64,000 nucleotides of DNA from Candidatus Altimarinota bacterium (GTDB taxonomy: Bacteria > Patescibacteriota > Gracilibacteria > BD1-5 > UBA2023), in NCBI GenBank assembly GCA_043739785.1, contig JAYUDN010000001.1:37392-101391 (forward strand). Reading direction: 5' to 3'. The notes beneath the pieces are model-generated. The model was not told the DNA's origin, did no database searches, and saw nothing but the letters and a program-made list of their open reading frames with translations. The position numbers and the translations under genes were made by a program. Positions 11,706 through 61,494 of the stretch are shown here, in pieces; the first letter of the stretch is position 1, and the number at the start of each line of letters is the position of its first letter.

Positions 11706-12305
11706 ATGGAAAAAGAACTTTTTTTTGCACTCATCAGTATATTTTTTTACATTATATGAACGGTTCCCTATTTCCGTGACGTTTTACGATGACGAACTCT
11801 TCCTCATCCATTCTCCTATTTTGTATGGTTTATCCTGACTGGATTTAATACTCTCGTACTTCTCTGGCAAAAGGAATATATCTCCCTCATTCCCGCGTTA
11901 CTCAATACACTATCAAATATTATTTTTACAATGTACGGCATAAAGAGCTTTCGAAAGATTCAGATAAACTATTTCGATTATATTTTTCTTGTCTGAGCAT
12001 TACTGCTCCTTCCTTTTTATTTTTACACACAAAATGTATTTTTGACGGTTATACTGAGTATAGGAATAGATTTTTTAGGTTTTTTATCTACCCTCAAGAA
12101 ATGATGGAATCAACCTTGGAGTGAGACACTTTTTACCTTCCTAGTTATTGGATTGTCTCAACTCCTTATATTATTTACGCAATGAACAGTAATTTTAGAA
12201 TCTTCAGCATTTTGGATATACGTCTTTTTTGTGAATATAATTTTTATTAGCATTGTCGGATTTCGTCGCTATTATCTCAAGGGATGGAAATCTATCTTCG
12301 AATAA
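11706..12305 (+). CDS. Integral membrane protein, paralog B
   Basis: 199 aa, multi-TM. Starts 2 nt after paralog A and has the same motif layout. Confidence 0.55.
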
Positions 12306-12351
12306 TTTTTACCCCATAAATTTTGAATTTGTTTCAGGAAGACACTTAATT

Positions 12352-13485
12352 ATGTCCTACGATCAGTTTGCTACCACATTCTCGAAGAGTCGGAAACACC
12401 ATCCTTGGCCAGAATTGGACGCTATTATTTCCGATATCCAATCCGAGGGATATATGAGGGTGCTTGATGTCGGGTGCGGTAACGGAAGGCTCCTCGAAGA
12501 GTGGTTCAAAAGAAGCGAAGCAAAACAAGGTTTGAATTGAGAACAAGAAAACCCCCCGTCGAAGGGGGGCAGGGGGATACGGGGTTGGTATGCTAACTCG
12601 AATCAAGCTATTCCGTATGATAGAAAACTCCTGGAAAAAGCGAAAGAAAATAGAAAATCTGGAAATCCAGTAGAAAATGCTTTTTGGTTTACTATTCTGA
12701 AATCTGAATCTCTTAAAAAATATAAGTTTACTCGACAGAAGCCACTTCTGACTTATGTAGTTGATTTTTATTGTTCCGAACTCTGATTGATTATCGAGCT
12801 CGATGGGGACTCTCATACTACTCAGATTTTATATGATCAAAAAAGAACCGAGGAACTAGAAAAGTACTGACTTTTTATCCTCAGATTTTCGAATCAAGAT
12901 GTGATGTTGCGGCCAGAGTGAGTATTAGAGAATCTACTTGAATGCATTCGACAGAGAGAAAGTTACCCCCCTCCCCCCCTTGGAAGGGGGGTATCACACC
13001 CATATACTTGAAATTGAAAAGAAGCTTTAGATATTACATATCTCTGAATCGATAATTCAGTCGGGATGATTAATGAAGCTAGAAAATGCCATCCTGGATA
13101 TGATTTCCGAGTTATTGAAATGGCTCAACTTGAAAACTTGAAAACTTGAAAACTTGAAAACTATGACGCTATAGTCTTGTTGGCATCTTTCCATCACCTC
13201 GAAACCGAAGCAGAGCGACTGACCGTATTGTCATCGCTTCGGAAAATGCTTTCACCACACGGACGAATCTATATGACGAACTGGAACCTGCTCGGGCAGC
13301 CTCGATATGAAAAAAGTCACCGAGGAAATGGCGACTTCGATATCAAGATCGGGGAATACATTCGATACTACCATAGTTTCCAGATCGAAGAGCTCCAGAC
13401 ACTTTTCGAAAAATCTGGATTCAGTATTCGAGAACATAGAATATTTGAAGGAGGAAAAAATATTTTCTCTATCGTAGGATTATAG
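12352..13485 (+). CDS. Class I SAM-dependent methyltransferase carrying an in-frame DUF559 endonuclease cassette
   Basis: Motif I VLDVGCGNGRLL lies upstream and LGIDNSVGMINEARK plus LLASFHHL downstream. One uninterrupted code-25 frame covers 377 codons. 12253..12540 and 13177..13485 are in the same frame (924 nt apart). Confidence 0.7.
12541..12995 (+). mobile_element. DUF559 (Vsr-like endonuclease fold) cassette with GC-rich hairpin ends, inserted in frame
   Basis: IPYDRKLLEKAKENRK...AFW..L......YKFTRQKPLLTYVVDFYCSEL(G)LIIELDGDSH...YDQKRTEELEKY(G)LFILRFSNQDV. Flanked by cccccc-gtcgaa-gggggg (12552..12569) and cccccc-ttggaa-gggggg (12974..12991). Confidence 0.7.
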
Positions 13486-25492: not shown

Positions 25493-26427
25493 GTTTTTTT
25501 GGAACTCCTTCTTTATCTGCCTCAGTCCTGGCAGATCTTTTCGAGGCCTCAGATATAGAGGTGACCTTTGTGGTGACCAATCCAGATAAGGCGGTCGGAC
25601 GATCCGAAGTCCTCGTGCCAACTCCGGTGAAAGAGCTCGCTCTCCTTCACAAGATTCCCGTATTTACCCCGACCAGAATCCGAGATAATACCGACCTCTT
25701 CGACACGCTTCGATCATTTGATGTGGAGTACTTCATCGTTGTCGCCTATGGCCGCATCCTCCCCCAGGAAGTCCTCGATATTCCGAAGAAACTCTGCATC
25801 AATATCCATGGCTCTATCCTTCCGAAATACCGAGGGGCTTCCCCGATTCAATCAGCTCTCCTTCATGGAGAGACCGAGACGGGCGTAACGATTATGAAAA
25901 TGAGCCTCGGGATGGATGAGGGTGATATTTTGAAAATTCGTACGATTCCTATCGCGGCCCATGAAACCAGTGAAACTCTGTTTGAGAAGTTTGCGGAGGT
26001 ATCGGGACCGACCCTCATCGCGACTCTTCATGAACTCGAGATGGGAGGGATTACATCACTTCCACAGAACTATATCGAGGCGACGTACTGTACAAAAATA
26101 GAAAAAGAAGATGGACTCGTGGATTGGAATCTTCCGGCGCGTGAAATCTATCATCGATGGCAGGCCTATACGCCTTGGCCTGGGATCTACACGATGTATG
26201 AGGGGAAACGCCTCCTTCTGGAGGGCGTTTCCAGTTGAAAGTTAAATGTTGAAAGTTGAAAGTTCGGAGAAACGTGACAAGTGATCAAACTGGAAGATGG
26301 TTCAATCTGAGTTCAATGTGGAGAATGAATCTTGACACTTGAGCAAGTAAAGCTAGAATGAAAAAAAACTCAATCCATACGGGATTTTGTAAATGGGAAT
26401 CGGAAGTTTTTAGAGTATAGGTTTTAG
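25477..26427 (+). CDS. fmt: Methionyl-tRNA formyltransferase
   Basis: FFGTP.....L..L, NIHGSILPKYRGASPIQ and a C-terminal domain read through five TGAs (VQCGEGILTLEQVKLEGKK). Confidence 0.9.
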
Positions 26428-27734: not shown

Positions 27735-28187
27735 GTATTAGTTTATTAGTTTATTAGTTTATTAGAGCATGAGAGCACTGGTGAACGGATGTACCGGACA
27801 AGAACTTTTTTACAGTTTTCGAAACTTCAAGAGTAGATTCTCGTTTTCTCGGGAATGACAGTAGTAAAATTCCCCTTTCAACCTGCTAACTCCCAGAATC
27901 TACTTTTCTCCGTCTCCGTCGCTTCCACCCCTCCTTTTTTACCCCCTAGTCCCCCTTGGAAGGGGGATTCGGAATCCCCTTATTCGTCGTCCAAAGCCTT
28001 TCCACTTTCCGACTTTCTAACCAGCCAATCAGCTTACCGACTCCTTTCCCCATCCCAGCTTACCTGCACCTAGCTATCTCCTCTTCCTCGTCTATTTCGT
28101 CTCTATAGTTTCTACCCTTCACTCCTTCCACCAACCAGCATACCAGCTAATCAGCCAATCTACCTCACTTCTAATCCCCCCTTTATT
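27735..28187. repeat. Intergenic mosaic repeat array A
   Basis: gtttatta x3 (27741..27764); GC hairpin accccctagtcccccttggaagggggattcggaatcccc (27941..27979); reverse-orientation word tracts (ccagccaatcagcttacc, tctaccc). Confidence 0.8.
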
Positions 28188-29074: not shown

Positions 29075-29755
29075 ATGCATTCCACAGATCCTCATTATCC
29101 CATCGAATACACGCTCTGAGAGGTCGAGTTTTTTGGACGGAAATTCCGAGTGACGCCTGATGTATTGATTCCTCGTCTCGAGACCGAGTGACTCGTTCGA
29201 CGAGCTCGCACCCTCCTCCAAAAATCCAATAATCTAAGCACTCAAAAAACCACCATTATTGATATTGGCACCGGTTCATGAATCATCGGGGTGAGTCTTG
29301 CTGATCTCGCGGAGGAAGTGATATTTCTCGATATTTCCGAAAAGGCCCTTGAAGTAGCTCGAAAAAACTTTCGTACTCATTTTCCGAATAAAAAAGCAAA
29401 GTTTCTCCTATCAGACCTCCTTTCCAATATACCAATATACCAATATACCAATATTCTCCTTGTCGCCAACCTCCCCTATATCAAAGCCGATGACTGGGAA
29501 CATATGAGCGAAGACACTCGATATGAACCGGAACTCGCCCTCTTCGGCGGAGAACACACCGGATTCGAACTCTACGAGAGGCTCTTCGAGCAACTTTCAA
29601 CTTTCAACTTGCAACCTGTAACGGTTATGATCGAATTCGGGTTTGATCAACGAGTCATAGCAGAAGAAACCCTAAAGAAATATGGTTGGAAGTATGCATT
29701 TTTTACTGACTATGCAGGCATAGAACGATTCGCGGAAATTAATATTGACTTATAA
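29075..29755 (+). CDS. prmC: Release-factor glutamine methyltransferase (HemK/PrmC-like), short form
   Basis: FRVTPDVLIPRLETE(G)LV, GTGS(G)IIG and VANLPYI (NLPY in place of NPPY), with a TGA at 29279 inside the GxGxG SAM motif. The N-terminal helical domain is absent. Confidence 0.75.
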
Positions 29756-34289: not shown

Positions 34290-34560
34290 AGAGGGGGAGG
34301 GGTTAAGAATTAGCTGGTTAGCAGGTTTGTTGGGAGGTTGGGATGGGAGAAGGGTAGAGACGGTAGAAACGATCGAACGGTAGAGACGGGGGGCTGGTTT
34401 GCTGATTAGCTGGGAAGGAGAGAAGCTGGTTGGTGGGGAGAGGAGTTTCCATCCCCCTTCCAAGGGGGGCAGGGGGTAAAAAAAGAAGAGTAGAAAAGTA
34501 AAGAGAGAAACCTTATAGTACGGTCATTCCCGTGAAAACGGGAATCTAAATGAAACTTCA
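34290..34560. repeat. Intergenic mosaic repeat array B
   Basis: gctggt/ggtagag words, GC hairpin tccatcccccttccaaggggggcagggggt (34447..34480) and gtcattcccgtgaaaacgggaatc (34523..34546). Confidence 0.8.
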
Positions 34561-36685: not shown

Positions 36686-37480
36686 AAAGTTAGAATAGGA
36701 GGTAGCTGGTAAGCTGGGATGGGAGAAAAAGGGAGAAGAGTGGAAAAGGAGAAAGCTGATTCGCTGGTAAGAAAGTTGGAAAGGAAAAATAGTAGGATAA
36801 CTCGAGAGGAGGAATGGGTAAGATGATGCAAGGGTAAAAGAAAAAAAACGAGTTTTTGTCATTCCGACCGAAACGACCATAGGAAGTGAAGTGGAGGAAT
36901 CCCTTTTCACATTAAGAAGATAAAATCATACTGAAACCAAGGGATCCCTCGATTCCGGCTATCTCCTCCACTCGGGATGACAACGGTGAGAGAAGAGTAG
37001 AAGAGCGTAAAAGTAGAAGAGTAGAAGAGCGAATGGGGGTCTCTATCCCCCTTCCAAGGGGGACAAGGGGGTAGGGTATAAGGAAGTTTGGTGTCATTCC
37101 GACCGAAGTGACAGAGGGGAAAGCGCCACGAGAATTCCATTGTTACTTTGTCATTCCCGTGAAAACGGGAATCCAGCAAATAAGAAACTGGATCCCCGCA
37201 TGCGCGAGGATGACAACCAAAAGAAGTAGAAAAGAGGAAAGGGAGAGAACTTAGAAACGATGGGAAGGTGGATGAGAGTTTTTTGAATCCCCCTTCCAAG
37301 AGGGACTAAGGGGAGTAGGGTATAAGGAAGTAAAAAAGGAGAAGAGTAGAAAAGTAGAATTGGATAAAGTAAGAACAGCAAGAGCCAAACACGGGAAAAC
37401 CCGAGCACTCCAACTCTCGGAGAGATGATCACATTGAAAAGAGAGAAGAAAGTCATATAATACGCCACTCATACACATCT
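36686..37480. repeat. Intergenic mosaic repeat array C (about 0.8 kb, largest in the window)
   Basis: Modules: M3 36858..36903, M5 36941..36982, GC hairpins 37031..37086 and 37280..37330, M3 37093..37138, M1-M2 composite 37150..37215, plus gtagaag and gctggt word tracts. Confidence 0.85.
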
Positions 37481-42645: not shown

Positions 42646-43275
42646 ATGAAATGTATCATCTGACTCGGAAATCCAGGGAAAAACTATCAACATACTCGAC
42701 ACAATGTCGGGTTTATGATGATAGACCAGATTGCTGAAAGGTATGGCGATGGAGTATGGAAGGATTCGAAGTTCCAGGGAGTGGTTTCGAGTTGAGAGTT
42801 TCCTGTTTTCAGTTGAAAAAAACTTTTATTGGATTCTACAGGTGAATGAATGGAAAGAGCTGTGAATGGACAACCAACAGCTCAAAACTCAAAACCCAAA
42901 ACCGAAAACTGTCTCCTCCTGAAGCCTCTTACCTTTATGAACCTCTCAGGGCAGTCGGTCGCGAGCCTGGTACACTTCTACAAACTGGATCCGAAGACCG
43001 ATATTCTCGTCATCGCTGATGATATCGATATGGCATTCGGAAAGGTTCGATACCGGGCAAAGGGGAGTTCCGGAGGGCAAAATGGACTCAAGTCCATCAT
43101 CGAACATCTCGGGACGGACGAATTCGCTCGGATCAAAGTCGGGATTGGTCGGGATGATCGCTTCGCCGTGAGTGACTGGGTTCTCTCGAAGTTCACGAGT
43201 GAAGAAATGAAAATACTCAAAGAAGTCGTATTTCTGGAGGTTCAGTCAAAAATAGATGAATGGATGGAGGGGTAA
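42646..43275 (+). CDS. pth: Peptidyl-tRNA hydrolase with an internal insertion of about 32 codons
   Basis: MKCII(G)[39 protein letters not shown] and VGIGR. The N-terminal part is only recovered by reading TGAs at 42661, 42793, 42814 and 42847. Confidence 0.85.
42784..42910 (+). repeat. Heptad-array-bounded segment inside pth
   Basis: Left: gtttcga|gttgaga|gtttcct|gttttca|gttgaaa (42784..42818). Right: ctcaaaa|ctcaaaa|cccaaaa|ccgaaaa (42881..42908). The two arrays are in inverted sense. Confidence 0.7.
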
Positions 43276-43838
43276 TGAAAAGTGAAGAATGAATAACGAA
43301 GAATAGAGGGGAAATTACGAAATACGAATGAAGAATTAGTAGCAAAAAATGAAGAATATGAGCCCTTCGTCATTCTGAGGTCGCCCCTTTGCGAAGCATT
43401 GGAAGTACCCTTGGGGTACGAAGAATCCAGATTCCGAAAGACCGAACTTCTTCAGGACTATCCTGATCGGTGTACGGGAGTGAAAAATTGTTGTCATTCC
43501 CGTGAAAACGGGAATCCACTTCTCTTTACCCCCTTAGTCCCCCTTGGAAGGGGGATTCAAAATCCTCATTCGCTTTTCTTTTGTTGTCATCTCGAGTGGA
43601 GGCGATAGCCGGAATCGAGAGATCCCTTTGCTTCAGTATGATTTCAATCCCTTGAAGTGGAATAAGGGATTCCTCCGCTTCACTTCCAGCGGTCGTTTCG
43701 GTCGGAATGACAAAAAAATCAGTTCTACTCGTCTACCATCTTCTACCACACTCTACCATCTTCTACCACACTCTACCATCGTCTACCCAACCAGCACACT
43801 AGCAAACCAGCCAACCAGTTATTTCCTAACCTTCCCCT
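43276..43838. repeat. Intergenic mosaic repeat array D
   Basis: M6 43367..43429, M1 43493..43517, GC hairpin 43527..43565, M5 (reverse) 43586..43625, M3 (reverse) 43666..43711, and CTACC phased every 10 nt at 43733..43783. Confidence 0.85.
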
Positions 43839-44681
43839 ATGCGTCTTGATCTCGCCGTATCCTCGAAACTCAGTATTTCTCGCAACCGTGCCCAGCGTCT
43901 TATCGATGAGGGACTCGTTTCTGTCGACGGGAAAGTCTGTCGAAAACCGTCCCATGAAGTGGAAGGGGAGATTATCGAAGTATCCGAGGGTTCCAGTAAT
44001 CACTGGGTTGCTCGGTCAGCAGGGAAACTGGATGGTTTCTTGGATGAGTTGCAGGTTGAAGGTTGCAGGTTACAGGATGAAAAATGAGAAAATGTATGAG
44101 AGAAAAACTCCATTCTTGATCAATCCAGCTCGTTTTTATGAACCAAGATAGATGAAGTTCTAGTTTCAAAACCTTCAACTTGCAACTTGCAACTTGCAAC
44201 TGCCACCTGCCTCGACATCGGCTCTTCTACCGGAGGATTTACTCAGATCCTCCTCGAGCGGGGAGCGAGGCGAGTGGTTGCGGTCGATGTCGGGACGGAT
44301 CAGCTTCACCTTAGTCTGCGAGGCGATCCGCATATCGAGCTCTATGAAAATACGGATATTCGCACCTTTTCGAAAATAGAAAAATTCGACATTATCACCA
44401 TCGATGTTTCCTTTATCTCCCTTCGGGAAATCGTTCCCGAGCTACAGAGATTCATGAAAGAGGATACCGATATATTCCTTCTTTTTAAGCCTCAGTTTGA
44501 AGTCGGACGAGCGAACCTCCGTAAGACGGGAGTCCCGAAAAGTGAGGGAATCATAGATTTATCCCTTCATGATTTCCAGATATTTCTCGAACATGCCGGA
44601 TTCACCATAATGAAAGTATCGAAAGCTCAGGTCGTCGGGGAAGCTGGTAATCAGGAGTATATGATGTGGGTGAGGCGGTAG
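43839..44681 (+). CDS. tlyA: TlyA-family rRNA 2'-O-methyltransferase (S4 plus FtsJ domains) with an internal insertion
   Basis: The S4 domain is MRLDLAVSSKLSISRNRAQRLIDEGLVSVDGK. The SAM motif is CLDIGSSTGGFTQILLERGA..V.AVDVG. 43839..44087 and 44187..44681 are in frame. Confidence 0.8.
44048..44204 (+). repeat. Heptad-array-bounded segment inside tlyA
   Basis: Left: gttgcag|gttgaag|gttgcag|gttacag (44048..44075). Right: cttcaac|ttgcaac|ttgcaac|ttgcaac (44173..44200). The arrays are in inverted sense and bracket a ~95-nt core. Confidence 0.7.
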
Positions 44682-45030
44682 GGAGGTAGAAACGAGGGAA
44701 AGATAGAGACGGAAAAAGGCCGGTAAGCTGGTTTGCTGGTTAGAGGGTTGGAAAATTGGAAAGTGGATGAGTGGAAAAGGTAGAATAAATGAGCTTTTGT
44801 CATCCCGACCGAAATGGAACAAGTTGGAGTGTAATAGAGAAACCCCATTTCTATTTTGTCATTCCCGTGAAAACGGGAATCCAGCAAACAAGAATCTGGA
44901 TCCCCGCATACGCGAGGATGACAAACAAAGGAAGTGGCAGAAGTCTAGAAAGATAGAAAAAATTAGAATATATAACAAGAAAAAACTGAAAAATTTGCCA
45001 AATAAAAATAAATAGAGTATGATTAGTAGG
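44682..45030. repeat. Intergenic mosaic repeat array E
   Basis: ggtagaa/gctggt words, an M3 variant at 44799..44845 and the M1-M2 composite at 44858..44923. Confidence 0.8.
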
Positions 45031-45865: not shown

Positions 45866-46290
45866 GAGAAAGCTGGTTAGCTGGTTCGCTGGTAGGAGAG
45901 GAAGCCGGTAAGCTGGTTTGCAGATTAGCAGGTTGGTCGGTCGGGTAGAAAGGATAGAGATACTTCATATGGATAATTATAGAAGACAAAAAGAGTGAAA
46001 TTCCCCCTTGATAAAGGGGGTGAGGGGGATTTTGTTTCCCCTTTCTTACTTCCTAATCTGTCTATCTTGTCTATGCATTTCTCTTTCACCTTCACCTGCC
46101 TATATTGTGCTGTGTTCATACTCTCTCTACTCACCCCTCCCTCCTACCGACTTCCACCCTTCAACTTTCTAAAGAGCAAACCAGCCCTCCCCGTTTCTAC
46201 CATTTCTACCGACTCTATAGATACAGAGTCCCGAGTATTTGCCTTTTCACCCGATTTCACTATATTTCTCCTGACTAAGAACTAACTTTC
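45866..46290. repeat. Intergenic mosaic repeat array F
   Basis: 8-nt periodic words agctggtt|agctggtt|cgctggta ... gccggtaa|gctggttt|gcagatta|gcaggttg|gtcggtcg|ggtagaaa (45871..45959), and a GC hairpin at 45998..46034. Confidence 0.8.
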
Positions 46291-48382: not shown

Positions 48383-48408
48383 AAAATCCCGAGCGAATCG
48401 GGATTTTT
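48383..48408 (+). terminator. Rho-independent terminator
   Basis: aaaatcccga-gcgaa-tcgggatttt. Confidence 0.65.
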
Positions 48409-48481
48409 CGTGGAAGTATTTCTTTTTTCTATGAATCTTTGCGGCCTTTAGAATTCTAGCGTAGGAGTTGATTTTCGAATA

Positions 48482-49261
48482 TTAACACACTACAACTTTT
48501 TCCTTCTCTTTTTCATAGGCTCACTGTGGTTCAGACTCTAAAAAAATAAGAGGGGCAAATACCTCAATTCCAAGTGACATGATTGTATTATTACAATAAC
48601 TTGTCGACCAGACTTGTTTTCCATCGCTTCCTCTCTGTACTGGATAAATACTAAGTGTTCCGTGTCCATCTTCTACTGGAATTTTCCATGTTCCCGCTTT
48701 GGTCAGAAGCATTCAAGAAGTCGAGAATCACACTTCTGCAGGTCATAGATTTTTTTCTCCTACGTAGGTAACTTCCTGATGAATCGAAGGGGCGTAATAT
48801 TCAGCCAGTTGTATTATCGCACGTGGACTATAGAAAAATCTTCGAACTCCATGTTCATCAGTAAATTCGATACAGAATCATTCATCTCTCGTAATTTTTT
48901 CAAACCATCCGTTAGTATTTATAGCTCAACTGAATTGCAAAGCGTCATCAATAGTTACTTCAGAAACTGGCGTTAGATTTTTATCACGTCCTCAGGACGT
49001 ATAAATATATTTTGCAAACACGGCTCATCATTTATTTAGATCTTTAAGTTCCGGTGGTAGGGGTTGCCGAGAGAGCCAATCCGGAGAGATACACTTTCTT
49101 CACAGAAATGAAGTAAGTGCTTCCGGAGGAATTACTAATCATTCTCAGAGTCAAAGAACTTTATTAGATCATTTAGTAGTCGTTCAAATAACAGAACCTA
49201 AGCCAGATCAAGAATAGATTTTGCCTGCTTCATTTCTTGTTCATCGTAAACGATTATCCAT
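48482..49261 (-). CDS. Hypothetical protein (259 aa), very UGA-Gly rich
   Basis: A continuous code-25 frame with about 20 in-frame TGAs. Only 48521..48712 is visible in the standard track. Confidence 0.4.
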
Positions 49262-49300
49262 AATCAATAAGTTATAAATTAGTTGGACTATTTTATATTG

Positions 49301-50194
49301 TTACTCTCTAGATGTACCCAATTTTCCTACTTGTACTTGCACACTTCCAGTAACCTCTACCACATTTCTTTGGTTCGGGATTCAGAAAAGCTCGGCGATA
49401 TCGTCAGGCAAGTGTGGGGTTGTTTCGAAAGAACAGACGAGGGTGTTTTCCAAATGTACCTCGATATGTTGATCTCAGGAAACGATGTAAAATGTCGGTT
49501 TTACTTCTGGAACTGCAGGCGTGGTTTCTCTCGGGGCGTCTCCTTCTCTATGACCGGAATGATATCTGAAATCAAAAATAGTTTTTGAGGTTTCAGATAG
49601 ATCTTCGCCAGATTGTGCTATACTCCCATTTTCCAGAAACAACCAGTGGATATAGGTCGTAAATCATCATTCATCCTGCCCGTCTTTGAATACCTCTCCA
49701 GTAAGATTCAGTTGCAAATGTGAGTTAATTCATCGTTGTTTTACAAAAGAAAGGATTTTCACTTTCCCATCATGTCAAAACTCAGTAAAAGTTTCCGGTT
49801 TTATACGGAAAGAATTTCTTCATACATACTCATCTACTCAGTTATCAAATGTGACATTTTTTGATTTTTGTTTCATTTTAAATTCTGTCACTCCTCCATC
49901 TTCAATGTGGGCTACTATTTCAGTGGTTATAACCCCATCACGCTTTCTAAAAATTAGACTCTCTAGCTCTGCTCTCATAAATTTACTAACTACCTCCCAT
50001 TCTCAGTGTTTAAAATAAGAATAGGAAAAACCTTTTTCGATTCATGTCTCTGGCTCTCCAGCACTATCAATTCTATCTACTAGCTCTGCAGGGAATGGAG
50101 TGCTCGGGAGCCTTTCAAATGTACCAAATGGACTTTCAGCCACTCAAGTCAAAGGAGTGACCGAGGTAAAAGCAGGAACCAGAAAATTATCCAT
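49301..50194 (-). CDS. Hypothetical protein (297 aa)
   Basis: ATG at 50194 and TAA at 49301, with 11 in-frame TGAs. It is in the same frame as the downstream gene and is entirely absent from the standard-code track. Confidence 0.45.
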
Positions 50195-50306
50195 AAAATA
50201 AAGTAAATATATCTAGCATTATTTTGAATAAATATTATTTGTCAAATACTATTATCATTTTTCCAAATTCTTTGTCGTTTCTTACCATTTTCCATATATT
50301 GGTGCC

Positions 50307-51284
50307 ATGTATATCCTTGCAATTCCGACATCTCATACTATCGATACGGAGCCACTGATTTATTTCTGTCCCGAGAACTTCGAGTCGCAGATAGGACTCG
50401 GTTCGCTAGTCGAAATCCCCGTTCGTACGTCGATGACCTATGCGGTCATTTCGGATATTGATGTGGAAATACCAGTCGGGCTTGAGATTACTGATATCCG
50501 CTCGATCGTCCGAGTGGTCTGTACGACGCCACTATTGGGCGAGGATACCCTTCGCGTGATTCCAGAAATTGCTGAACTCTCTCTCGTCCCGATTCATAAG
50601 GTCCTCTCCCTCTTCCTTCCGAAGTCGACATTGACAGCTCTCGAGAAGAAGAATTTTGAGGTGTTGGATAGTTTGCCGGTAAGCTGGGATGCTGGTTTGC
50701 AGGTTGGGGAATTGGAAGTCAAATCTGAGAAAAGAAAACTTGAGAACTCAAAACTCAAAACTCAAAACTCAAAACTCGAACGTTCCATCGAATTCTTTCA
50801 TTCGACTCGAGTGACCCCGGCTGTCATCGAGACCTATATAACCCCCGATACGCTCGTTATCCTGCCTGACGATATCCTCCTTCGTTCGTGTGAACAGTAT
50901 TTTACGAGTCAGTCTTCCTTGAGGGAAGAGCATTCTCACGGAAAACAAGCATTATTTACCTATGGAGATACGACGATCACTCGAAAGATCCGGAGCTGGG
51001 TCGATGTGAGAAATCATAAATTTTCGATTTGTTTTTGAACTCGACGACTTCTTTACTATAATCTCTCGAAGTATCGACAGATCCTCTATATAGAAGATGG
51101 ATTCGCTCGTGAGTACTTCCAGCACCCGCTCCGATACAAGCATATCGATATTCTCAGAGCCCTTTCGAAGCACTCTTCTCTCGATATCCGTATCCTGACG
51201 AGCATCCCAGCGCTCGAAACCCTCTCAAAACTCCGAAACTTTTCCATCCACAATATCACATGAAAATCGACCCTCAACGAATAA
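50307..51284 (+). CDS. Degenerate, truncated PriA-like (primosomal protein N') protein
   Basis: The N-terminal 3'-DNA-binding-like domain is LIYFCPENF...GSLVEIPVRT. STRVTPAV occupies the Walker A position and IEDGF the DEEH position. The protein ends after 325 aa. Confidence 0.5.
50675..50781 (+). repeat. Word/heptad repeat block inside the PriA-like gene
   Basis: gccggtaagctgggatgctggtttgcaggttggggaattggaag (the same words as the intergenic arrays), then ctcaaaa x4 plus ctcgaac (50747..50781). Confidence 0.7.
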
Positions 51285-54892: not shown

Positions 54893-55520
54893 GAAGCAGG
54901 TAGATCTTGGTAGATAACAGGTAGAAACGGCAGTAGGTAGAAAGCGAGGAAAATAAGATGAGAAAAGGCTGGTATGCCGTTAGGCTGGTAAGCTGGTATG
55001 GGAGAAACGAATGGAAAAAGGAATAGTAGAGAGATGATAGCAGATAGAATATGGGAAAATGGTAGAAACGGTAGAAGAGGAGAAAAGTAGAAAAGGGAGG
55101 AACGATAGGATTGGTAAAAAATGGATGGGATTTTTTGAATCCCCCTTTCAAGGGCGACTAAGAGGGTAACGGTTCGGAAAGACGATGGGGAGGTAGAAAT
55201 GATGGAATGGTAGAAAAGGTAGAAGCGAAAGAAGTATTTTTTGCGTTATTCCGACCTTAGTGGAATAAAGTAAAATCAAGAGAAGGAATCGTATCCTCAT
55301 TTCGTCATTCCCGTGAAAACGGGAATCCAGCAAATAAGGAACTGGATCCCCGCATACGCGAGGATGACAAAGAGACGAAGGAATGCCTCTCCCGAGTCCT
55401 ATGGATCGGCATGACACAGTATTGTCATTCCGACCGAAACGACCAGAGGAAGTGAAGTGGAGAAATCCCTTTTATTCTCATCCGTCTTGTTCGATAGTTT
55501 TTATCGATTTTCCTTCTATT
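54893..55520. repeat. Intergenic mosaic repeat array G
   Basis: GGTAG at 54888, 54899, 54909, 54920 and 54936; GC hairpin 55141..55182; M1-M2 composite 55304..55369; M3 55424..55468. Confidence 0.85.
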
Positions 55521-56447: not shown

Positions 56448-56700
56448 AGGGGACGAGAGTTCGAGAGTATAAGAGTTTTACAGTTTAAGAGGAGAAGGGC
56501 GCGGAAGCTTGGAAGCTAGTTAGCCGGTAAGCTGGGACGGTAGAAATGATGGGATGGAGGCGGTAGAAACGGCAGAAACGATTTCTGTGTCATTCCGACC
56601 GAAGCGGAGGAATCTCTTTTCTCGTTTTGTCATTCCCTTGAAAACGGGAAGCCAGAAAACGATGGGATGGTAGAGGAGCTAGACATGGGAAAATGTAGGC
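56448..56700. repeat. Intergenic mosaic repeat array H
   Basis: gctggt/ggtagaa words, M3 at 56589..56614 and an M1 variant at 56629..56655. Confidence 0.8.
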
Positions 56701-57968: not shown

Positions 57969-58245
57969 GAGAGAGACGGTAGAAATGGTAGGAGCAGGTA
58001 GATTCTAGCAAATAGAAGATAGAAAGGGCAGAGAGGTTAGAAACGGTAGAAACTAAGTATAATTGGTAATTCCATCCCCCTTCTAAGGGGGATTGGGGGG
58101 TAAGGTATGAGAGAGCGAAATGGTAGAAGGGTAGAAAAGTAGAAAAGGGAGAAGTTGAATAGGATGAGTAGTTCAATTACAGTATAGCTTCTATTCAGCT
58201 CTTTTTTGGTTTGGAGAATGAGGTTTTTTTCCATAAAATCCCACT
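57969..58245. repeat. Intergenic mosaic repeat array I
   Basis: GGTAG at 57978, 57987 and 57997; GC hairpin 58070..58109; gtagaaaag words. Confidence 0.8.
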
Positions 58246-61200
58246 ATGTACCACATCCAGAACTATCTTTCGAAAATCCAATCTTCTCTTGCTTCTGGTC
58301 ATGCGACAGAGCATACCTATCGACCCGCGCTGAAAGAATTATTTGAGTGTATCACCACTTTTACGGTCCACAATGAACCGAAACGCAGTGAACATGGCGC
58401 TCCTGACTTTATTTTTCTCGATGGGATGATCCCGATGATGTATGCCGAAGCCAAAGATATCCATATCTCCCTCGATAAGATAGAAAAGTCAGAACAGCTC
58501 GATCGGTACTTCGGGTACCCGAAACTTATCCTGACCAATGGTATCGAGTTTCGATTTTACAACAACGGTATCCGCTATAGAGAACCGATCGTCATCGCGA
58601 AAAAGTCGTGAAATATGCTCGACAGTTTCCCAGAAAAATTCGAAGTTCTCGGAAAGGAGATGCAGGCATTTATATCTGACTATATAGATACGATTCGCTC
58701 TGCCCGACACCTTGCTAAGATCATGTGAGGAAAGGCACAGCGAATTCGTGATAACCTCCGAGATATGATGTGGAACACCGAACGTTTCCCTGATATCTGG
58801 AAGCTCTATCACACCTTCAAATCAGAGATCCTTCATGACCTGTCACATGACGACTTCGCGGATCTCTATGCTCAGACGCTTGTCTATGGTCTTTTTGTCG
58901 CCCGCTATCACGACCAGACTCCTGAGGACTTTACTCGTTCTGAGGCTCGCGATCTGGTCCCGAAGTCGAATCCGCTTCTTCGAAGATTTTTCGACCATAT
59001 CGCCGGTGAAGGATATGAGAAACGCCTCGAGTATATCGTCGATGAGCTCTGTCGGGTTTTTGTACACGCGGATGTGCACTCGCTGATGCATGGGATGTAC
59101 CAGAAAGAAACGCATGACCCCGTCATCCACTTCTATGAAGACTTCCTCGGCGAGTATGATAGTAAGCTCCGTATGCAACGTGGAGTCTTCTACACGCCTG
59201 CTCCCGTCGTGAAGTTTATTATACGAGCGGTGGATGATGTGCTGAAAACCCACTTCCACCTCCCGAAGTGACTCGCGGATACGAGCAAGATCAAGATCGA
59301 ACGAGAGATCCAGAAATATGATAAGAAATGAGAGCGGAAGACGGAAATCATCGAAACACATCGGGTCCAGATCCTCGACCCTGCGACGGGTACGGGGACA
59401 TTTCTCGACGAGATCGTGCGACATATTCACGAGAAGATGAAAGGACAAGCGGGGATGTGGCCAAGCTATGTGAATGCTGACCTCCTCCCACGACTGCATG
59501 GATTCGAACTGATGATGGCGAGCTACACGATCGCTCACTTGAAACTCGGGCTCACGCTCGCAGAGACAGGAGTGACCGATATCGAAAAACGCCTCCAGAT
59601 CTACCTGACGAACTCCCTCGAAGAAGCCAAGTGAATGAAGGAAGACCAGTGAACCCTTTTCGGACTCCTCGAATCGATCACCGATGAGGCTCGACAGGCG
59701 GATGAGGTGAAGCGAGATAAACCTGTGATGATCGTCGTCGGGAATCCTCCGTATAGTGTGAGTAGTACGAACAAGGGGAAATGGATTCAAGACTTACTCA
59801 TTGATTATAAGAAGTGATTGTGAGAGAAGAAAATCAATCTCGACGATGACTATATCAAGTTTATCCGGTTCGGAGAGTCACTTATCGAGAAAAATGATGA
59901 ATGAATCCTCGCCTATATCTCGAATAATTCCTTTATCGATGGCATTACTCACCGACAGATGCGTAAGCACCTGATGGAATCCTTTGATGAGATTTATATC
60001 CTCGACCTCCATGGAAGCGCGAAGAAAAAAGAAATGTCACCAGATGGATGAACAGATGAAAATGTCTTCGATATTATGCAAGGCGTGAGTATCAATATTT
60101 TCATAAAGAAAAATAGAAATTCATCGAGCAAATTACTTGCAAAAGTTTATCACCGTGATCTCTTTGGAAAACGAGAGCTGAAATATGAGTGGCTCGAAAG
60201 TAATGGTCTGGAAAATTCCCCTCATTGAGGGGTGTCCGAAGGACGGGGTGGAGGTTTTCATGAACTTCAACCAGTTGAGCCATATTATTTTTTTGTTCCG
60301 AAGGATTTTTCTGAAGTAGCAGATTATGATATTTGATTTAAGCTGAATGATATCTTTGTAAACTCTAGTTGTTGAATTAAATCACATAGGGATGATTTTG
60401 TTATTGCTTTTAGGAAAGATGAAAATCACGCCAAAGTTTATGATTTGATAGATGAAAAATTGGCAGATTCAATGTTACTTAATAAATATTGATTAAAGGA
60501 GTCTGTAACATGGAATATATCTACTGCTAGAGTAAAGATTAAGGAAGAATCAAAAGTAAGTCTTTTATTAAGACAGATTGCTTATCGACCATTCGATACT
60601 CGTTCTATAATTTATACTAAGAGTTTAGTTGAGAGAGATAGGAGTGAAATCATGTGTAACTATTTTCAAGAAAATATTGGTATAGTCTGCACAAAGCAAG
60701 TAATGATTGAGAATTTTTCACATATACTAGTTTCAAAAGCACTAACAGATATTTGCTTTACTTCCGCAAATTCAAAAGAATCAGGATATAACTTTCCCCT
60801 CTACCTCTATCCTGACTGAAACAGTGCCACCCCGTCGCTACGCGCCACCCCTCAATGAGGGGAATTTCCGAATCGGGTTCCGAATCTCGATGCGACTATT
60901 TGGCAGAAGATTAATGAAAGTGTCGGTCGCGAGACAACTCCTGAAGAAGTCCTCGACTATATCTATGCCGTGCTTCACTCACCGAGTTATAGAGAGAAAT
61001 ATAAGGAATTTCTCAAGATAGATTTCCCACGAGTGCCGTATCCAGATTCATTGGTACCGTCCACCCCGAGCCCCTCAAGAGGGGAAGTGCGAGAGGTATT
61101 CGATAAGCTTGTCGCACTCGGATGAGAACTTCGAGGTTTACATTTGCTCGAGTCGCCGAAAGTCGAAGAGTATATCACGACTTTTCCTATTGCAGGAAGT

Positions 61201-61494
61201 GGGGAAGTTGAGAAAGTCCGTTATGAGAGAATTCCCGTCATTGCGAGGGACGAAGCAATCCAGACTTCTGAAATCGGAACTGTCTGGATTAATGAAACAC
61301 AATATTTCGGTGATGTACCAGAAATTGCTTGGAATTTCCATATCGGTGGTTATCAGCCAGCACAGAAGTGGCTCAAGGATAGGAAATGACGCATGCTCAC
61401 TTGGGAAGATATCGCCCACTATCAGTCGATGATCGTGGCACTGACTGAGACTGCGAGGGTGATGGGTGAGGTGGATAAGGTTATGGAAGTTTAA
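58246..61494 (+). CDS. Single-chain restriction-modification enzyme (type IIG/IIL or type ISP-related), 1082 aa
   Basis: An N-terminal PD-(D/E)xK-like nuclease domain (GAPDF...YAEAKD) is followed by a gamma-class N6-adenine MTase (motif I ILDPATGTGTFL, motif IV VVGNPPYS at 59743). The C-terminal target-recognition region contains FPRVPYP and WNFHIGGYQPAQKWLKDRK(G)R. About 20 in-frame TGAs. Confidence 0.75.
60212..60251 (-). repeat. GC-hairpin element copy a (reverse orientation), in frame inside the R-M gene
   Basis: The reverse complement, ccaccccgtccttcggacacccctcaatgaggggaatttt, matches copy b. Confidence 0.8.
60827..60869 (+). repeat. GC-hairpin element copy b, in frame inside the R-M gene
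   Basis: ccaccccgtcgctacgcgccacccctcaatgaggggaatttcc; the palindrome cccctcaatgagggg is at 60847..60861. Confidence 0.8.
61061..61088 (+). repeat. GC-hairpin element copy c (short variant), in frame inside the R-M gene
   Basis: ccaccccgagcccctcaagaggggaagt. Confidence 0.65.

What the first reader, a model, noticed from the sequence alone, without database searches (positions are those of the whole stretch)
50675..50781. The intergenic word vocabulary reappears inside the PriA-like ORF
gccggtaagctgg, gctggtttgcaggttgg and ggaattggaag are the same words that build the intergenic arrays at 44730..44760 and 45871..45940. Here they lie in a coding frame (LPVSWDAGLQVGELEV) and are followed by ctcaaaa x4 (KLENSKLKTQNSKLE). 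This shows that one DNA-level process deposits the same oligonucleotide words both between and within genes.
Basis: seen in the sequence. Interest (0 to 1): 0.65.

Follow-up and report, generated by a model that had tools for sequence, protein, structure and literature searches.

The report
Spacer repeat words inside a gene linker
In this Gracilibacteria genome, the short 7- and 8-base tandem repeats that fill the gaps between genes also sit, in frame and translated, in a floppy linker of a shrunken PriA-like protein, one case of a lineage-wide habit that looks undescribed but resembles known "selfish repeats in genes".

Summary
The window is from a Candidatus Gracilibacteria genome that reads TGA as a sense codon (code 25). 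ORF1 (50307-51284, 325 aa) is a truncated, helicase-less PriA relative. At 50675-50722 it carries six octamers (GCCGGTAA GCTGGGAT GCTGGTTT GCAGGTTG GGGAATTG GAAGTCAA). They align unit for unit with about ten G-rich octamer arrays that otherwise lie only in spacers. The 13-mer GCCGGTAAGCTGG occurs exactly 4 times (about 0.5 expected even with 2 mismatches allowed). A perfect CTCAAAA x4.7 array follows at 50745-50777. The third word (ggaattggaag) is not significantly enriched. The block is a lineage-specific, in-frame expansion of a predicted disordered inter-domain linker: 67 aa against a family median of 44, and 97 aa in the closest relative. ORF1 is under purifying selection on both sides of the block. 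The same pattern appears elsewhere: 7/8-nt arrays of about 4 copies sit in loops or linkers of TlyA and PrmC and inside the Fmt and methyltransferase genes. Where relatives could be compared, units change in concert, are swapped, or come and go as frame-neutral indels. Best explanation: slippage-driven, homogenised short-period arrays that exchange words between loci and are filtered by selection in genes. Transposition is not supported (no inverted ends, no target duplication). This is a new variant of a known kind, of moderate interest.

The parts
50307..51284 (+). ORF1: 325-aa truncated PriA homologue (3'BD plus degenerate helicase lobe 1), read with TGA = Gly
   Evidence: Pfam PriA_3primeBD over aa 15-105, E 1e-7. 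Profile match to PriA residues 46-339. NCBIfam score 43.9 bits against a cutoff of 813. dN/dS of 0.06 and 0.15 either side of the block.
50675..50722 (+). Six G-rich octamers (GCCGGTAA GCTGGGAT GCTGGTTT GCAGGTTG GGGAATTG GAAGTCAA), the only copy of the spacer octamer family found inside a gene in this window
   Evidence: Lag-8 segment 50663-50717. Alignment with the spacer copies in the same register. Word statistics.
50723..50744 (+). A-rich connector (ATCTGAGAAAAGAAAACTTGAG) holding the AAAACTTGAG seed shared with L001
   Evidence: Window versus L001 alignment.
50745..50777 (+). Perfect heptamer array AACTCAA/CTCAAAA x4.7
   Evidence: TRF 100% matches. One of only 5 perfect arrays of period 6 or more, with none in 100 shuffles.
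50651..50660 (+). GAATTTTGAG in the conserved coding flank: the only complement of the heptamer array. The adjacent GAGGTG(T/C)TGG is a GCTGG-like possible seed.
44713..44780 (+). Spacer octamer array just 3' of TlyA, containing GCCGGTAAGCTGGTTTGCTGGTTAGAGGGTTGGAAAATTGGAAAG; conserved in L005
45871..45946 (+). Spacer octamer array just 3' of the pilin-like gene. Its 48-nt core (6 units, including GCCGGTAAGCTGG) is absent from L005.
56496..56545 (+). Spacer octamer array holding the fourth exact GCCGGTAAGCTGG, followed by GCTGGGAC as in the ORF1 head
36700..36800 (+). Spacer array GCTGGTAA GCTGGGAT GGGAGAAA..., with the same head as the ORF1 copy
54965..55007 (+). Spacer octamer array (GCTGGTAA-type)
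34306..34450 (+). Octamer arrays in the leader region of nusA (non-coding; the true NusA start lies downstream of them)
27997..28173 (-). Spacer octamer arrays, G-rich on the minus strand
43778..43829 (-). Spacer octamer array upstream of TlyA, G-rich on the minus strand; absent from L005
42881..42910 (+). Second CTCAAAA array (x4.3, decayed) in a stretch with no Pfam match, taken as spacer; perfect x4.6 in L005
44047..44201 (+). TlyA linker insert bounded by inverted heptamer arrays: (GTTGCAG)n at 44047-44090 and (CAACTTG)n at 44158-44201
   Evidence: Arms of 44 nt at 73% complementarity, core of 18 nt at 94%, fold z -2.5. The units differ in L005.
29424..29454 (+). PrmC loop-1 perfect octamer array CCAATATA x3.9
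29591..29615 (+). PrmC loop-2 heptamer array CAACTTT x3.6
26233..26264 (+). Fmt C-terminal-domain heptamer array AGTTGAA x4.6
13127..13162 (+). Methyltransferase perfect octamer array AACTTGAA x4.5 (the same unit as in L001's ORF1 block)

Best explanation
The block is a lineage-specific, translated expansion of a disordered inter-domain linker in a truncated PriA homologue. It is built from the short-period tandem arrays that are endemic to this Gracilibacteria clade. Arrays of 7-8-nt units arise, expand, contract and are kept homogeneous by replication slippage or intra-array recombination (concerted evolution). Words also move between loci by template switching or ectopic recombination at the short shared motifs; GCTGG in the conserved flank is a plausible entry point. 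In spacers the G-rich octamers pile up as long, stop-rich mosaics. In genes, selection keeps only events that preserve the frame, contain no stop, and fall in permissive loops or linkers. That would explain why the ORF1 copy is stop-free and why its length differences from the relative are multiples of three. Shown: the shared vocabulary and register; the insertion status; the disordered location; purifying selection on both sides; unit-scale, frame-neutral indels; concerted unit changes; and array replacement. Inferred: slippage and recombination as the engine, and transfer between loci.
For: Code and gene: TGA is a sense codon. ORF1 is a PriA 3'BD/lobe-1 homologue. Vocabulary: word enrichment. 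Periodicity peaks at lag 7 (10 segments), lag 8 (19) and lag 9 (7), against about 0.3 expected per lag. Perfect arrays occur only at periods 7 and 8. The ORF1 octamers align unit for unit with the spacer copies and look chimeric: the head matches 56523/36705/28067 and the body matches 44719/45904. Insertion: the linker is 67 aa against a median of 44, with P0003 at 41 and P0002 at 97. AlphaFold gives pLDDT below 50 and no secondary structure for residues 107-156. Translation: dN/dS is 0.06 and 0.15 on the two sides in one frame. The length differences from L001 are 39 and 51 nt. Slippage-type dynamics: a 48-nt (6-unit) indel in the spacer array at 45877, plus 8- and 24-nt spacer indels. Coding indels of 4 nt or more between annotated genes occur only at repeat sites and are frame-neutral. 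The window and L001 amplify different units from the shared AAAACTTGRGAACT seed. Units change in concert in PrmC loops 1 and 2. The PrmC array is 30/33 nt identical to a relative whose gene is otherwise 62% identical. Transfer between loci: the sister genome has the reverse complement of the GCTGGGAR words in PrmC loop 1 in place of the CCAATATA array, with only +1 codon. Unit types recur at unlinked loci: AACTTGAA at 13127 and in L001's ORF1, and CTGCAAC in TlyA and in L001's ORF1. Purging: spacer arrays carry 6.6 TAA/TAG per 100 nt, while the ORF1 copy has one out-of-frame TAA in 107 nt.
Against: Generic slippage does not explain three features: the narrow copy number (3.6-4.9 copies, 26-37 nt, in spacers as well as genes), the AACT/AGTT core in 11 of 14 units (P about 3e-11), or how 7/8-nt arrays in housekeeping genes change copy number without passing through frameshifted intermediates. 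No step of word transfer between loci was observed directly. Only 64 kb plus about 150 kb of relatives were examined. L001 and L005 are identical across the block, so there is no population-level evidence of copy-number change. Whether this lineage lacks mismatch repair was not tested.
Confidence: 0.6

Rival explanations
1. RPE/MITE-like mobile element: the block is a copy of a small non-autonomous element that transposed in frame into the ORF1 linker, as Rickettsia palindromic elements do.
For: The family is dispersed and multi-copy, and its copies share the same unit order. The insertion is in frame in a permissive linker. The TlyA insert at 44047-44201 is truly palindromic, with 44-nt arms and fold z -2.5, and L001's version of the block has weak inverted arms with z -1.7. 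RPEs are a documented precedent (PMC10969869).
Against: The window's ORF1 block has no inverted termini and is not structured (z +0.67). It has no target-site duplication. Copies share words and order but not full length or fixed ends. The distant ortholog L006 has unrelated arrays at the same site. Arrays are replaced with almost no length change in PrmC. No transposase search was done. A viral-contig scan found only chance hits.
Confidence: 0.17
2. Functional cis-elements: the roughly 4 x 7-8-nt arrays are binding sites or RNA signals read by a lineage-specific factor, kept at fixed positions in genes and next to genes. The ORF1 block persists because the DNA or RNA is needed.
For: Copy number is narrow, at about 4. 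The AACT core is shared. The PrmC array is conserved 30/33 nt at 62% background identity, with third positions 8/9 identical against 46% background. The 3' part of the TlyA-downstream array is about 85% conserved between window and L005. The distant ortholog L006 has arrays at the same ORF1 position. Spacer arrays are stop-rich in all three frames and often begin right after a stop codon.
Against: Units differ freely between close relatives at the same site. Whole arrays are present or absent between relatives. Spacer arrays occur in both orientations relative to genes (my reading of the gene map). There is no Rfam match. No candidate reader protein was identified.
Confidence: 0.1
3. Contingency locus: the perfect heptamer tract is a slipped-strand phase-variation switch that turns ORF1 on and off.
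For: The tract is perfect, has a non-triplet unit, and lies inside an ORF. A change of one unit would shift the frame.
Against: Only 4.7 copies are present. The same kind of tract sits in housekeeping genes (Fmt, PrmC, TlyA), which are not typical phase-variable genes. Every observed difference between relatives preserves the frame. ORF1 is under purifying selection downstream of the tract. The two assemblies of the sister species show no copy-number difference, though they may not be independent.
Confidence: 0.05
4. Protein-level selection or coincidence: the linker was selected for a flexible Gly/Leu/Lys-rich peptide, and the resemblance to spacer words is a by-product of composition.
For: The block is in a disordered linker. 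An array-born peptide (SNIPxFQxSNIL) has become conserved in PrmC.
Against: The word matches are exact 13-mers and near-exact 17-mers, with no shuffle reaching the observed count. The 8-nt register runs across codons. The close relative encodes a different peptide at the same site.
Confidence: 0.03

Closest known systems
Rickettsia palindromic elements (RPEs) and other intragenic MITE-like repeats (ERIC, BOX)
   Same: A dispersed family of small repeats found both between genes and, in frame, inside unrelated housekeeping genes at structurally permissive sites, adding a peptide segment without killing the protein (PMC10969869). The TlyA insert at 44047-44201 is also palindromic.
   Different: The ORF1 block has no inverted ends, no target-site duplication, no fixed length and no conserved element-encoded peptide. 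It is made of 7-8-nt tandem units that expand, homogenise and swap. Some intragenic arrays replace sequence and do not add any.
Simple-sequence repeats evolving by slipped-strand mispairing (cryptic simplicity; concerted evolution of micro/minisatellites)
   Same: Short-unit tandem arrays, unit-scale indels, concerted base changes across units, and different units amplified from a shared seed.
   Different: Non-triplet (7/8-nt) perfect arrays lie inside housekeeping ORFs. Copy number is narrow, at about 4. An AACT core and a restricted vocabulary recur at unlinked loci. From general knowledge, bacterial SSRs of this kind are normally confined to contingency genes.
Mosaic intergenic repeats (E. 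coli BIMEs, neisserial NIMEs)
   Same: Spacer regions are built from a small set of motifs combined in variable order and number. This comparison rests on my own knowledge of those families.
   Different: Those families are built on palindromic REP/dRS3 units and are essentially extragenic. Here the units are non-palindromic purine-rich octamers, and one copy is translated.
PriA (primosomal protein N')
   Same: An N-terminal 3'-DNA-binding domain and a region alignable to helicase lobe 1. The in-frame TGA aligns with PriA's conserved Gly in the GTRS motif.
   Different: The protein is 325 aa against about 730. It has no winged helix, no Walker A, no Cys-rich region and no C-terminal domain. 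It scores 44 bits against an 813-bit equivalog cutoff. It is always followed by a PBP transpeptidase gene.

Membership tests
RPE / MITE-like intragenic mobile element | Terminal inverted repeats or an overall palindromic, hairpin-forming sequence | tested here: not met
   Window block: only 10-11-nt chance-level arms, RNA fold z +0.67. The feature is met for the separate TlyA insert (44-nt arms, z -2.5) and weakly for L001's block (z -1.7).
RPE / MITE-like intragenic mobile element | Target-site duplication flanking the insert | tested here: not met
   There are no direct repeats at the block edges, only internal repeats. The boundaries are blurred by linker divergence, so this is a weak test.
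RPE / MITE-like intragenic mobile element | Many full-length copies with common ends | tested here: not met
   About 10 loci share words and unit order, but they differ in length, in ends and in what follows.
RPE / MITE-like intragenic mobile element | In-frame insertion into unrelated genes at permissive sites | tested here: met
   The ORF1 linker. The same vocabulary in antisense in PrmC loop 1 of the sister genome.
Slippage-driven simple-sequence array (concerted evolution) | Head-to-tail short units well above chance | tested here: met
Slippage-driven simple-sequence array (concerted evolution) | Length changes in whole units between relatives | tested here: met
   Spacer indels of 48 nt (6 x 8), 8 and 24 nt. 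In ORF1 the changes are composite (31+8, 20+31), summing to multiples of 3.
Slippage-driven simple-sequence array (concerted evolution) | Concerted change of the same position in all units | tested here: met
   PrmC loop 1 has ACCAATAT against TCCAATAT in every unit. Loop 2 has CAACTTT against CAACTTG.
Slippage-driven simple-sequence array (concerted evolution) | Copy-number polymorphism within populations | not testable with these tools
   No read data are available. L001 and L005 are identical and may be the same population.
Phase-variable contingency locus | Non-triplet perfect repeat tract within an ORF | tested here: met
   Heptamer x4.7, 100% matches.
Phase-variable contingency locus | Out-of-frame alleles among strains, in surface, restriction-modification or virulence genes | tested here: not met
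   All differences preserve the frame. The host genes are housekeeping genes. dN/dS downstream of the tract is 0.15.
PriA (primosomal protein N') | 3' DNA-binding domain | tested here: met
   PF17764 over aa 15-105, E 1e-7, above the gathering score.
PriA (primosomal protein N') | Two-lobed SF2 helicase core with Walker A/B, a Cys-rich Zn region and a C-terminal domain | tested here: not met
   Only lobe 1 is alignable (PriA 237-377). The Walker A segment is missing from this subfamily, and the protein ends after lobe 1. NCBIfam gives 43.9 bits against an 813-bit cutoff.

The most novel reading that the evidence does not exclude
Generic slippage may not be the whole story. This Gracilibacteria lineage may have a dedicated, sequence-biased process, or a factor that reads the result. 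Such a process would write roughly 30-nt tracts of about four 7-8-nt units (AACT-core or GCTGG-type) at permissive sites in spacers and in housekeeping genes, keep them perfectly homogeneous over long divergence, and swap one unit type for another without changing the length. That would be a new class of bacterial repeat system that also creates protein segments, such as the PrmC SNIPxFQxSNIL loop.
Probability: 0.18. Interest if true: 0.8.

Novelty: new variant of a known kind. Interest (0 to 1): 0.52.

Why it matters
If the pattern holds genome-wide, code-25 Gracilibacteria would be a second clear example, after Rickettsia RPEs, of repeat DNA routinely being translated inside essential genes. 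The repeat type differs: non-triplet tandem arrays, not palindromes. This matters in three ways:
1. **Annotation.** Gene callers and homology tools will mis-handle these loci, especially if TGA is read as a stop.
2. **Genome evolution in reduced, host-dependent bacteria.** It raises the question of how frame-breaking repeats are tolerated in housekeeping genes, and what that says about replication and repair fidelity.
3. **Protein evolution.** Array-born peptides can become fixed loops next to active sites, as in PrmC.

Tried and rejected
- **Palindrome or hairpin reading of the ORF1 block.** Rejected for the window: fold z +0.67 and only 10-nt arms. It does hold for the TlyA insert.
- **Known RNA families.** Rfam finds only two tRNAs in the window.
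- **Phage or mobile origin of the words.** A viral-contig scan gave two unrelated hits at 55% GC with no array context.
- **Target-site duplication.** None was found.
- **More orthologs from metagenome contigs.** Only one distant relative turned up.
- **Array-split gene at 49243-49281.** Rejected. The two window ORFs are not homologous to L001's 601-aa gene, and the lag-7 hit there is AT-rich spacer.
- **L001 versus L005 as independent samples for copy-number stability.** They are 100% identical across the block and probably the same population.
- **ORF1 as two genes separated by a spacer.** Rejected. Block-free orthologs are continuous, both sides share one frame under purifying selection, and the length differences are 39 and 51 nt.
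- **Literature.** No description of these arrays in Gracilibacteria or Absconditabacteria was found.
- **Resemblance of GCTGGTGA/GCTGGTTN to the E. coli Chi octamer GCTGGTGG.** This is recalled from memory only, was not tested, and is not relied on.
Full report
**1. Genetic code and gene context**

Under table 11 the region is a patchwork of short ORFs. Reading TGA as sense raises the number of ORFs of at least 300 aa in the window from 8 to 44. Relatives found later are annotated as Candidatus Gracilibacteria, a lineage known to use code 25 (TGA = Gly). Direct support comes from ORF1 itself: its in-frame TGA at 51036 aligns with the conserved Gly of PriA's GTRS motif.

With that code the 'PriA-like ORF' is 50307-51284 and encodes 325 aa. 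A PBP2/FtsI-type transpeptidase gene follows it, and this gene order is kept in all relatives.

ORF1 is only partly PriA-like:
- Its only Pfam hit is the PriA 3' DNA-binding domain (aa 15-105, E 1e-7).
- A profile of the family aligns to PriA residues 46-339, covering the 3'BD and helicase lobe 1 but skipping the winged-helix/Walker A segment.
- NCBIfam gives 43.9 bits against an equivalog cutoff of 813.

It is therefore a truncated PriA homologue that is probably not a helicase. The family has at least 65 cluster representatives at E < 1e-30, and most full-length members are 277-298 aa.

**2. The observation**

- GCCGGTAAGCTGG occurs exactly at 44719, 45904, 50675 and 56523. With up to 2 mismatches there are 12 matches against 0.46 expected, and no shuffle reaches 12.
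- GGAATTGGAAG is not convincingly enriched: 6 matches against 2.04 expected, and none of the other matches is in an array.
- CTCAAAA forms a perfect array of 4.7 copies at 50745-50777. A second, decayed CTCAAAA array lies at 42881.
- The two peptides are ORF1 residues 123-138 and 144-158.

**3. What the words are**

Laid out in blocks of eight, the spacer 'arrays' are degenerate octamer arrays. A lag scan shows local self-similarity peaking sharply at lag 7 (10 segments), lag 8 (19) and lag 9 (7), against about 0.3 expected per lag. Perfect arrays of at least 3 copies exist only at periods 7 and 8. There are five, and no array of period 6 or more appears in 100 third-order Markov shuffles.

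The ORF1 block registers as a lag-8 segment (50663-50717) plus a lag-7 segment (50725-50793). In register, the copies run in parallel:

| Copy | Units |
|---|---|
| 44719 | GCCGGTAA GCTGGTTT GCTGGTTA GAGGGTTG GAAAATTG GAAAGTGG |
| 45904 | GCCGGTAA GCTGGTTT GCAGATTA GCAGGTTG ... |
| ORF1 (50675) | GCCGGTAA GCTGGGAT GCTGGTTT GCAGGTTG GGGAATTG GAAGTCAA |
| 56523 | GCCGGTAA GCTGGGAC ... |
| 36705 | GCTGGTAA GCTGGGAT ... |

The ORF1 copy therefore looks chimeric. Its head matches the copies at 56523, 36705 and 28067(-), and its body matches those at 44719 and 45904.

Of about ten loci with this G-rich vocabulary in the window, nine are in spacers. NusA's true start places the 34306 array in its leader. 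ORF1 holds the only copy inside a gene. The vocabulary is limited to the window's clade: it is present in L001/L005 and in one spacer of L002, and absent from the more distant Gracilibacteria loci.

**4. The block is a translated insertion in a disordered linker**
- The four distant orthologs among the first six relatives lack the block, and the closest (P0002, 75% identity) has a longer, different one.
- Across 49 family members, the stretch between the conserved KKNF and ILPDD motifs has a median of 44 aa. It is 41 aa in P0003, 67 aa in the window and 97 aa in P0002.
- Some longer members still have a Walker A motif in that stretch, which this subfamily has lost.
- AlphaFold predicts residues 107-156 with pLDDT below 50 and no secondary structure. 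The model as a whole is modest (mean pLDDT 59), so this supports the reading but does not prove it.
- Against L001, dN/dS is 0.06 for the part N-terminal to the block and 0.15 for the C-terminal part, in the same frame. The neighbouring PBP and YebC genes give 0.02 and 0.03.
- The two relatives differ in block length by 39 nt in the octamer part and 51 nt in the 3' part, and each is a multiple of three.
- Spacer arrays carry 6.6 TAA/TAG per 100 nt on the G-rich strand, whereas the ORF1 copy has a single out-of-frame TAA in 107 nt.

Together these results show a live gene that is read through the block, and a copy cleared of stop-bearing unit variants.

**5. How the arrays behave**

*ORF1.* At nucleotide level the window and L001 are collinear and 84% identical, but inside the block they differ by unit-scale indels. 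The 3' array has also been exchanged: the window has CTCAAAA x4.7, and L001 has AACTTGAA x4.6 plus CCTGCAA x4.4. Both sets start from a shared AAAACTTGRGAACT stretch. The two L001 units occur in other genes of the window, at 13127 in a methyltransferase and at 44048 in TlyA.

*Indels across about 17 kb of synteny with L005.*
- Spacer arrays gain or lose multi-unit blocks. A 48-nt block of six octamers, which includes the 45904 copy of the 13-mer, is absent from L005. So is a 69-nt array upstream of TlyA. Indels of 8 and 24 nt also occur.
- Inside genes, indels of 4 nt or more occur only at repeat sites and are frame-neutral.

*Other intragenic arrays.* They sit in the TlyA S4-FtsJ linker and in two PrmC loops, and also within the Fmt C-terminal domain and a methyltransferase gene.

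*TlyA.* The two heptamer arrays are inverted copies of each other (44-nt arms at 73%, an 18-nt core at 94%, fold z -2.5), which makes a palindromic insert of about 155 nt. L005 has different units in the same place.

*PrmC loop 1.*
- The window's perfect (ACCAATAT) x3.9 array is not a net insertion.
- A relative at 62% protein identity (L016) has a perfect (TCCAATAT) x4 at the same position. The arrays are 30/33 nt identical, and all three differences fall at the same unit position. The rest of the gene is 62% identical, and third positions of conserved residues only 46%.
- The sister genome (L015) has CTTCCCAG CCTCCCAG CTTCCACT in this loop. That is the reverse complement of the GCTGGGAR octamer words, with only one extra codon. 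It is a second intragenic case of the spacer vocabulary, and it arose by replacement, not by addition.
- Many Gracilibacteria PrmCs carry SNIPxFQxSNIL at this loop, which is essentially the translation of (TCCAATAT) x4. An array-born peptide has become a conserved loop next to the NPPY motif.

*PrmC loop 2.* The units change in concert: CAACTTT x2 in the window against CAACTTG x3 in L015.

*Distant ORF1 ortholog.* L006 has its own GTTACAAG x3.9 and CGAAACC x3.9 arrays at the same linker position.

**6. Features that plain slippage does not explain**
- All arrays of the non-G-rich class have 3.6-4.9 copies (26-37 nt), in spacers as well as in genes.
- An AACT/AGTT core is present in 11 of 14 independent units, against about 6% per unit by chance (P about 3e-11).
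- It is unclear how 7/8-nt arrays in housekeeping genes change copy number without passing through frameshifted intermediates.

These points keep open a more specific process, or a functional reading (see the novel case).

**7. Explanation and rivals**

*Best explanation (about 0.6).* The block is a linker expansion made of endemic short-period arrays. The arrays are generated and homogenised by slippage or intra-array recombination. Words are exchanged between loci at short shared motifs; the conserved flank GAGGTG(C/T)TGG is a plausible entry point. Selection then filters events for frame, for absence of stops and for permissive location.

*Transposition of an RPE/MITE-like element.* This is the main rival. 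For this block, however, there are no inverted ends, no target-site duplication and no common termini.

*Functional cis-element.* This has some support from the PrmC conservation and the narrow copy number. Free unit swapping and presence/absence differences between close relatives argue against it.

*Phase variation.* This is unlikely, given the housekeeping host genes and the consistently frame-preserving differences.

*Chance or composition.* The shuffle tests exclude this.

**8. Comparison with known systems, and novelty**

The closest known systems are:
- Rickettsia palindromic elements and other intragenic MITE-like repeats (in-frame insertion into unrelated genes; PMC10969869);
- slippage-driven simple-sequence repeats showing concerted evolution;
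- mosaic intergenic repeats of the BIME/NIME type (this comparison rests on my own knowledge).

The present case differs from all three. It uses non-triplet tandem units inside housekeeping ORFs, it draws on a restricted vocabulary shared between spacers and genes, and arrays are replaced with little or no change in length. I found no description of this in Gracilibacteria or Absconditabacteria.

This is a new variant of a known kind, of moderate interest.

Noticed in passing
window 12253-13485: A class-I methyltransferase ORF carries an in-frame insert of about 155 aa that contains a DUF559 (Vsr-like endonuclease) domain (aa 126-232, E 1e-27). The insert is flanked by PPSKGGRG and PPPLGRG peptides, which are readings of the CCCCC..GGGGG hairpin repeat. 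It looks like an endonuclease gene embedded in frame in a host gene.
   Followed up: partly
window 44840-44925, 37140-37215, 55278-55385, 56588-56660; 45995-46030, 34450-34480, 37040-37075, 58070-58105: Two further dispersed spacer repeat classes are present: GTCATTCCCGTGAAAACGGGAATCCAG...GGATGACA elements and CCCCCTTGATAAAGGGGG-type hairpins. Their peptide readings (GLTRNPAQPEST, LIRGGGGF, EKGGVTNEMSDGG) occur in frame in PrmC loops of other Gracilibacteria, and SPHGGVSEGRGGGF occurs in the window's RM-like gene at 58246-61494.
   Followed up: partly
window spacer arrays (e.g. 44655-44790, 45866-45960, 36700-36800, 54965-55110, 58010-58163): The purine-rich period-8 arrays carry 6.6 TAA/TAG per 100 nt on the G-rich strand (2.0 window-wide; 91 observed against 65.5 +/- 6.3 in shuffles). 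Stops fall in all three frames in 9 of 12 arrays, and the arrays often start right after a same-strand stop codon. A period of 8 (2 mod 3) cycles an embedded stop through all three frames, so these could act as a three-frame stop trap in an organism with only two stop codons. Three of nine loci do not fit that orientation.
   Followed up: partly
window 44047-44201: The TlyA S4-FtsJ linker holds a palindromic in-frame insert of about 155 nt whose arms are inverted heptamer arrays (44-nt arms at 73%, 18-nt core at 94%, fold z -2.5). Of everything seen here it is the most RPE-like object.
   Followed up: partly
window 29424-29454; L016 1262-1294; L015 about 1716-1750: The conserved PrmC loop peptide SNIPxFQxSNIL, next to the NPPY motif, equals the translation of (TCCAATAT)x4. 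Perfect arrays survive in two lineages that are 62% identical, differing only by one concerted base per unit. The sister genome has the antisense GCTGGGAR octamer words at that position.
   Followed up: yes
window 48408-50238 vs L005 8023-9933 / L001 3983-5788: At the same syntenic slot the window has two minus-strand ORFs (261 and 297 aa) that are not homologous to the relatives' single 601-aa PPDK_N-like gene. This is a gene replacement between close relatives.
   Followed up: partly
window 51036-51038: The in-frame TGA of ORF1 aligns with the invariant Gly of PriA's GTRS motif, a clean single-site confirmation that TGA codes for Gly (code 25).
   Followed up: yes
window 43787-43812 and 44727-44737: The C-rich array upstream of TlyA contains AGCAAACCAGC, the exact complement of GCTGGTTTGCT in the G-rich array downstream of TlyA, so the gene is bracketed by inverted octamer arrays. 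The upstream array is absent from L005, so the arrangement is not conserved.
   Followed up: no
L001 6256-6285 (= L005 10357-10386): The relative's ORF1 block begins with GAGCTGGT GAGCTGGT GAACTGGT, so it contains GCTGGTGA twice. That is 7/8 identical to the E. coli Chi octamer GCTGGTGG (recalled from memory). The resemblance was not tested and may be coincidence.
   Followed up: no
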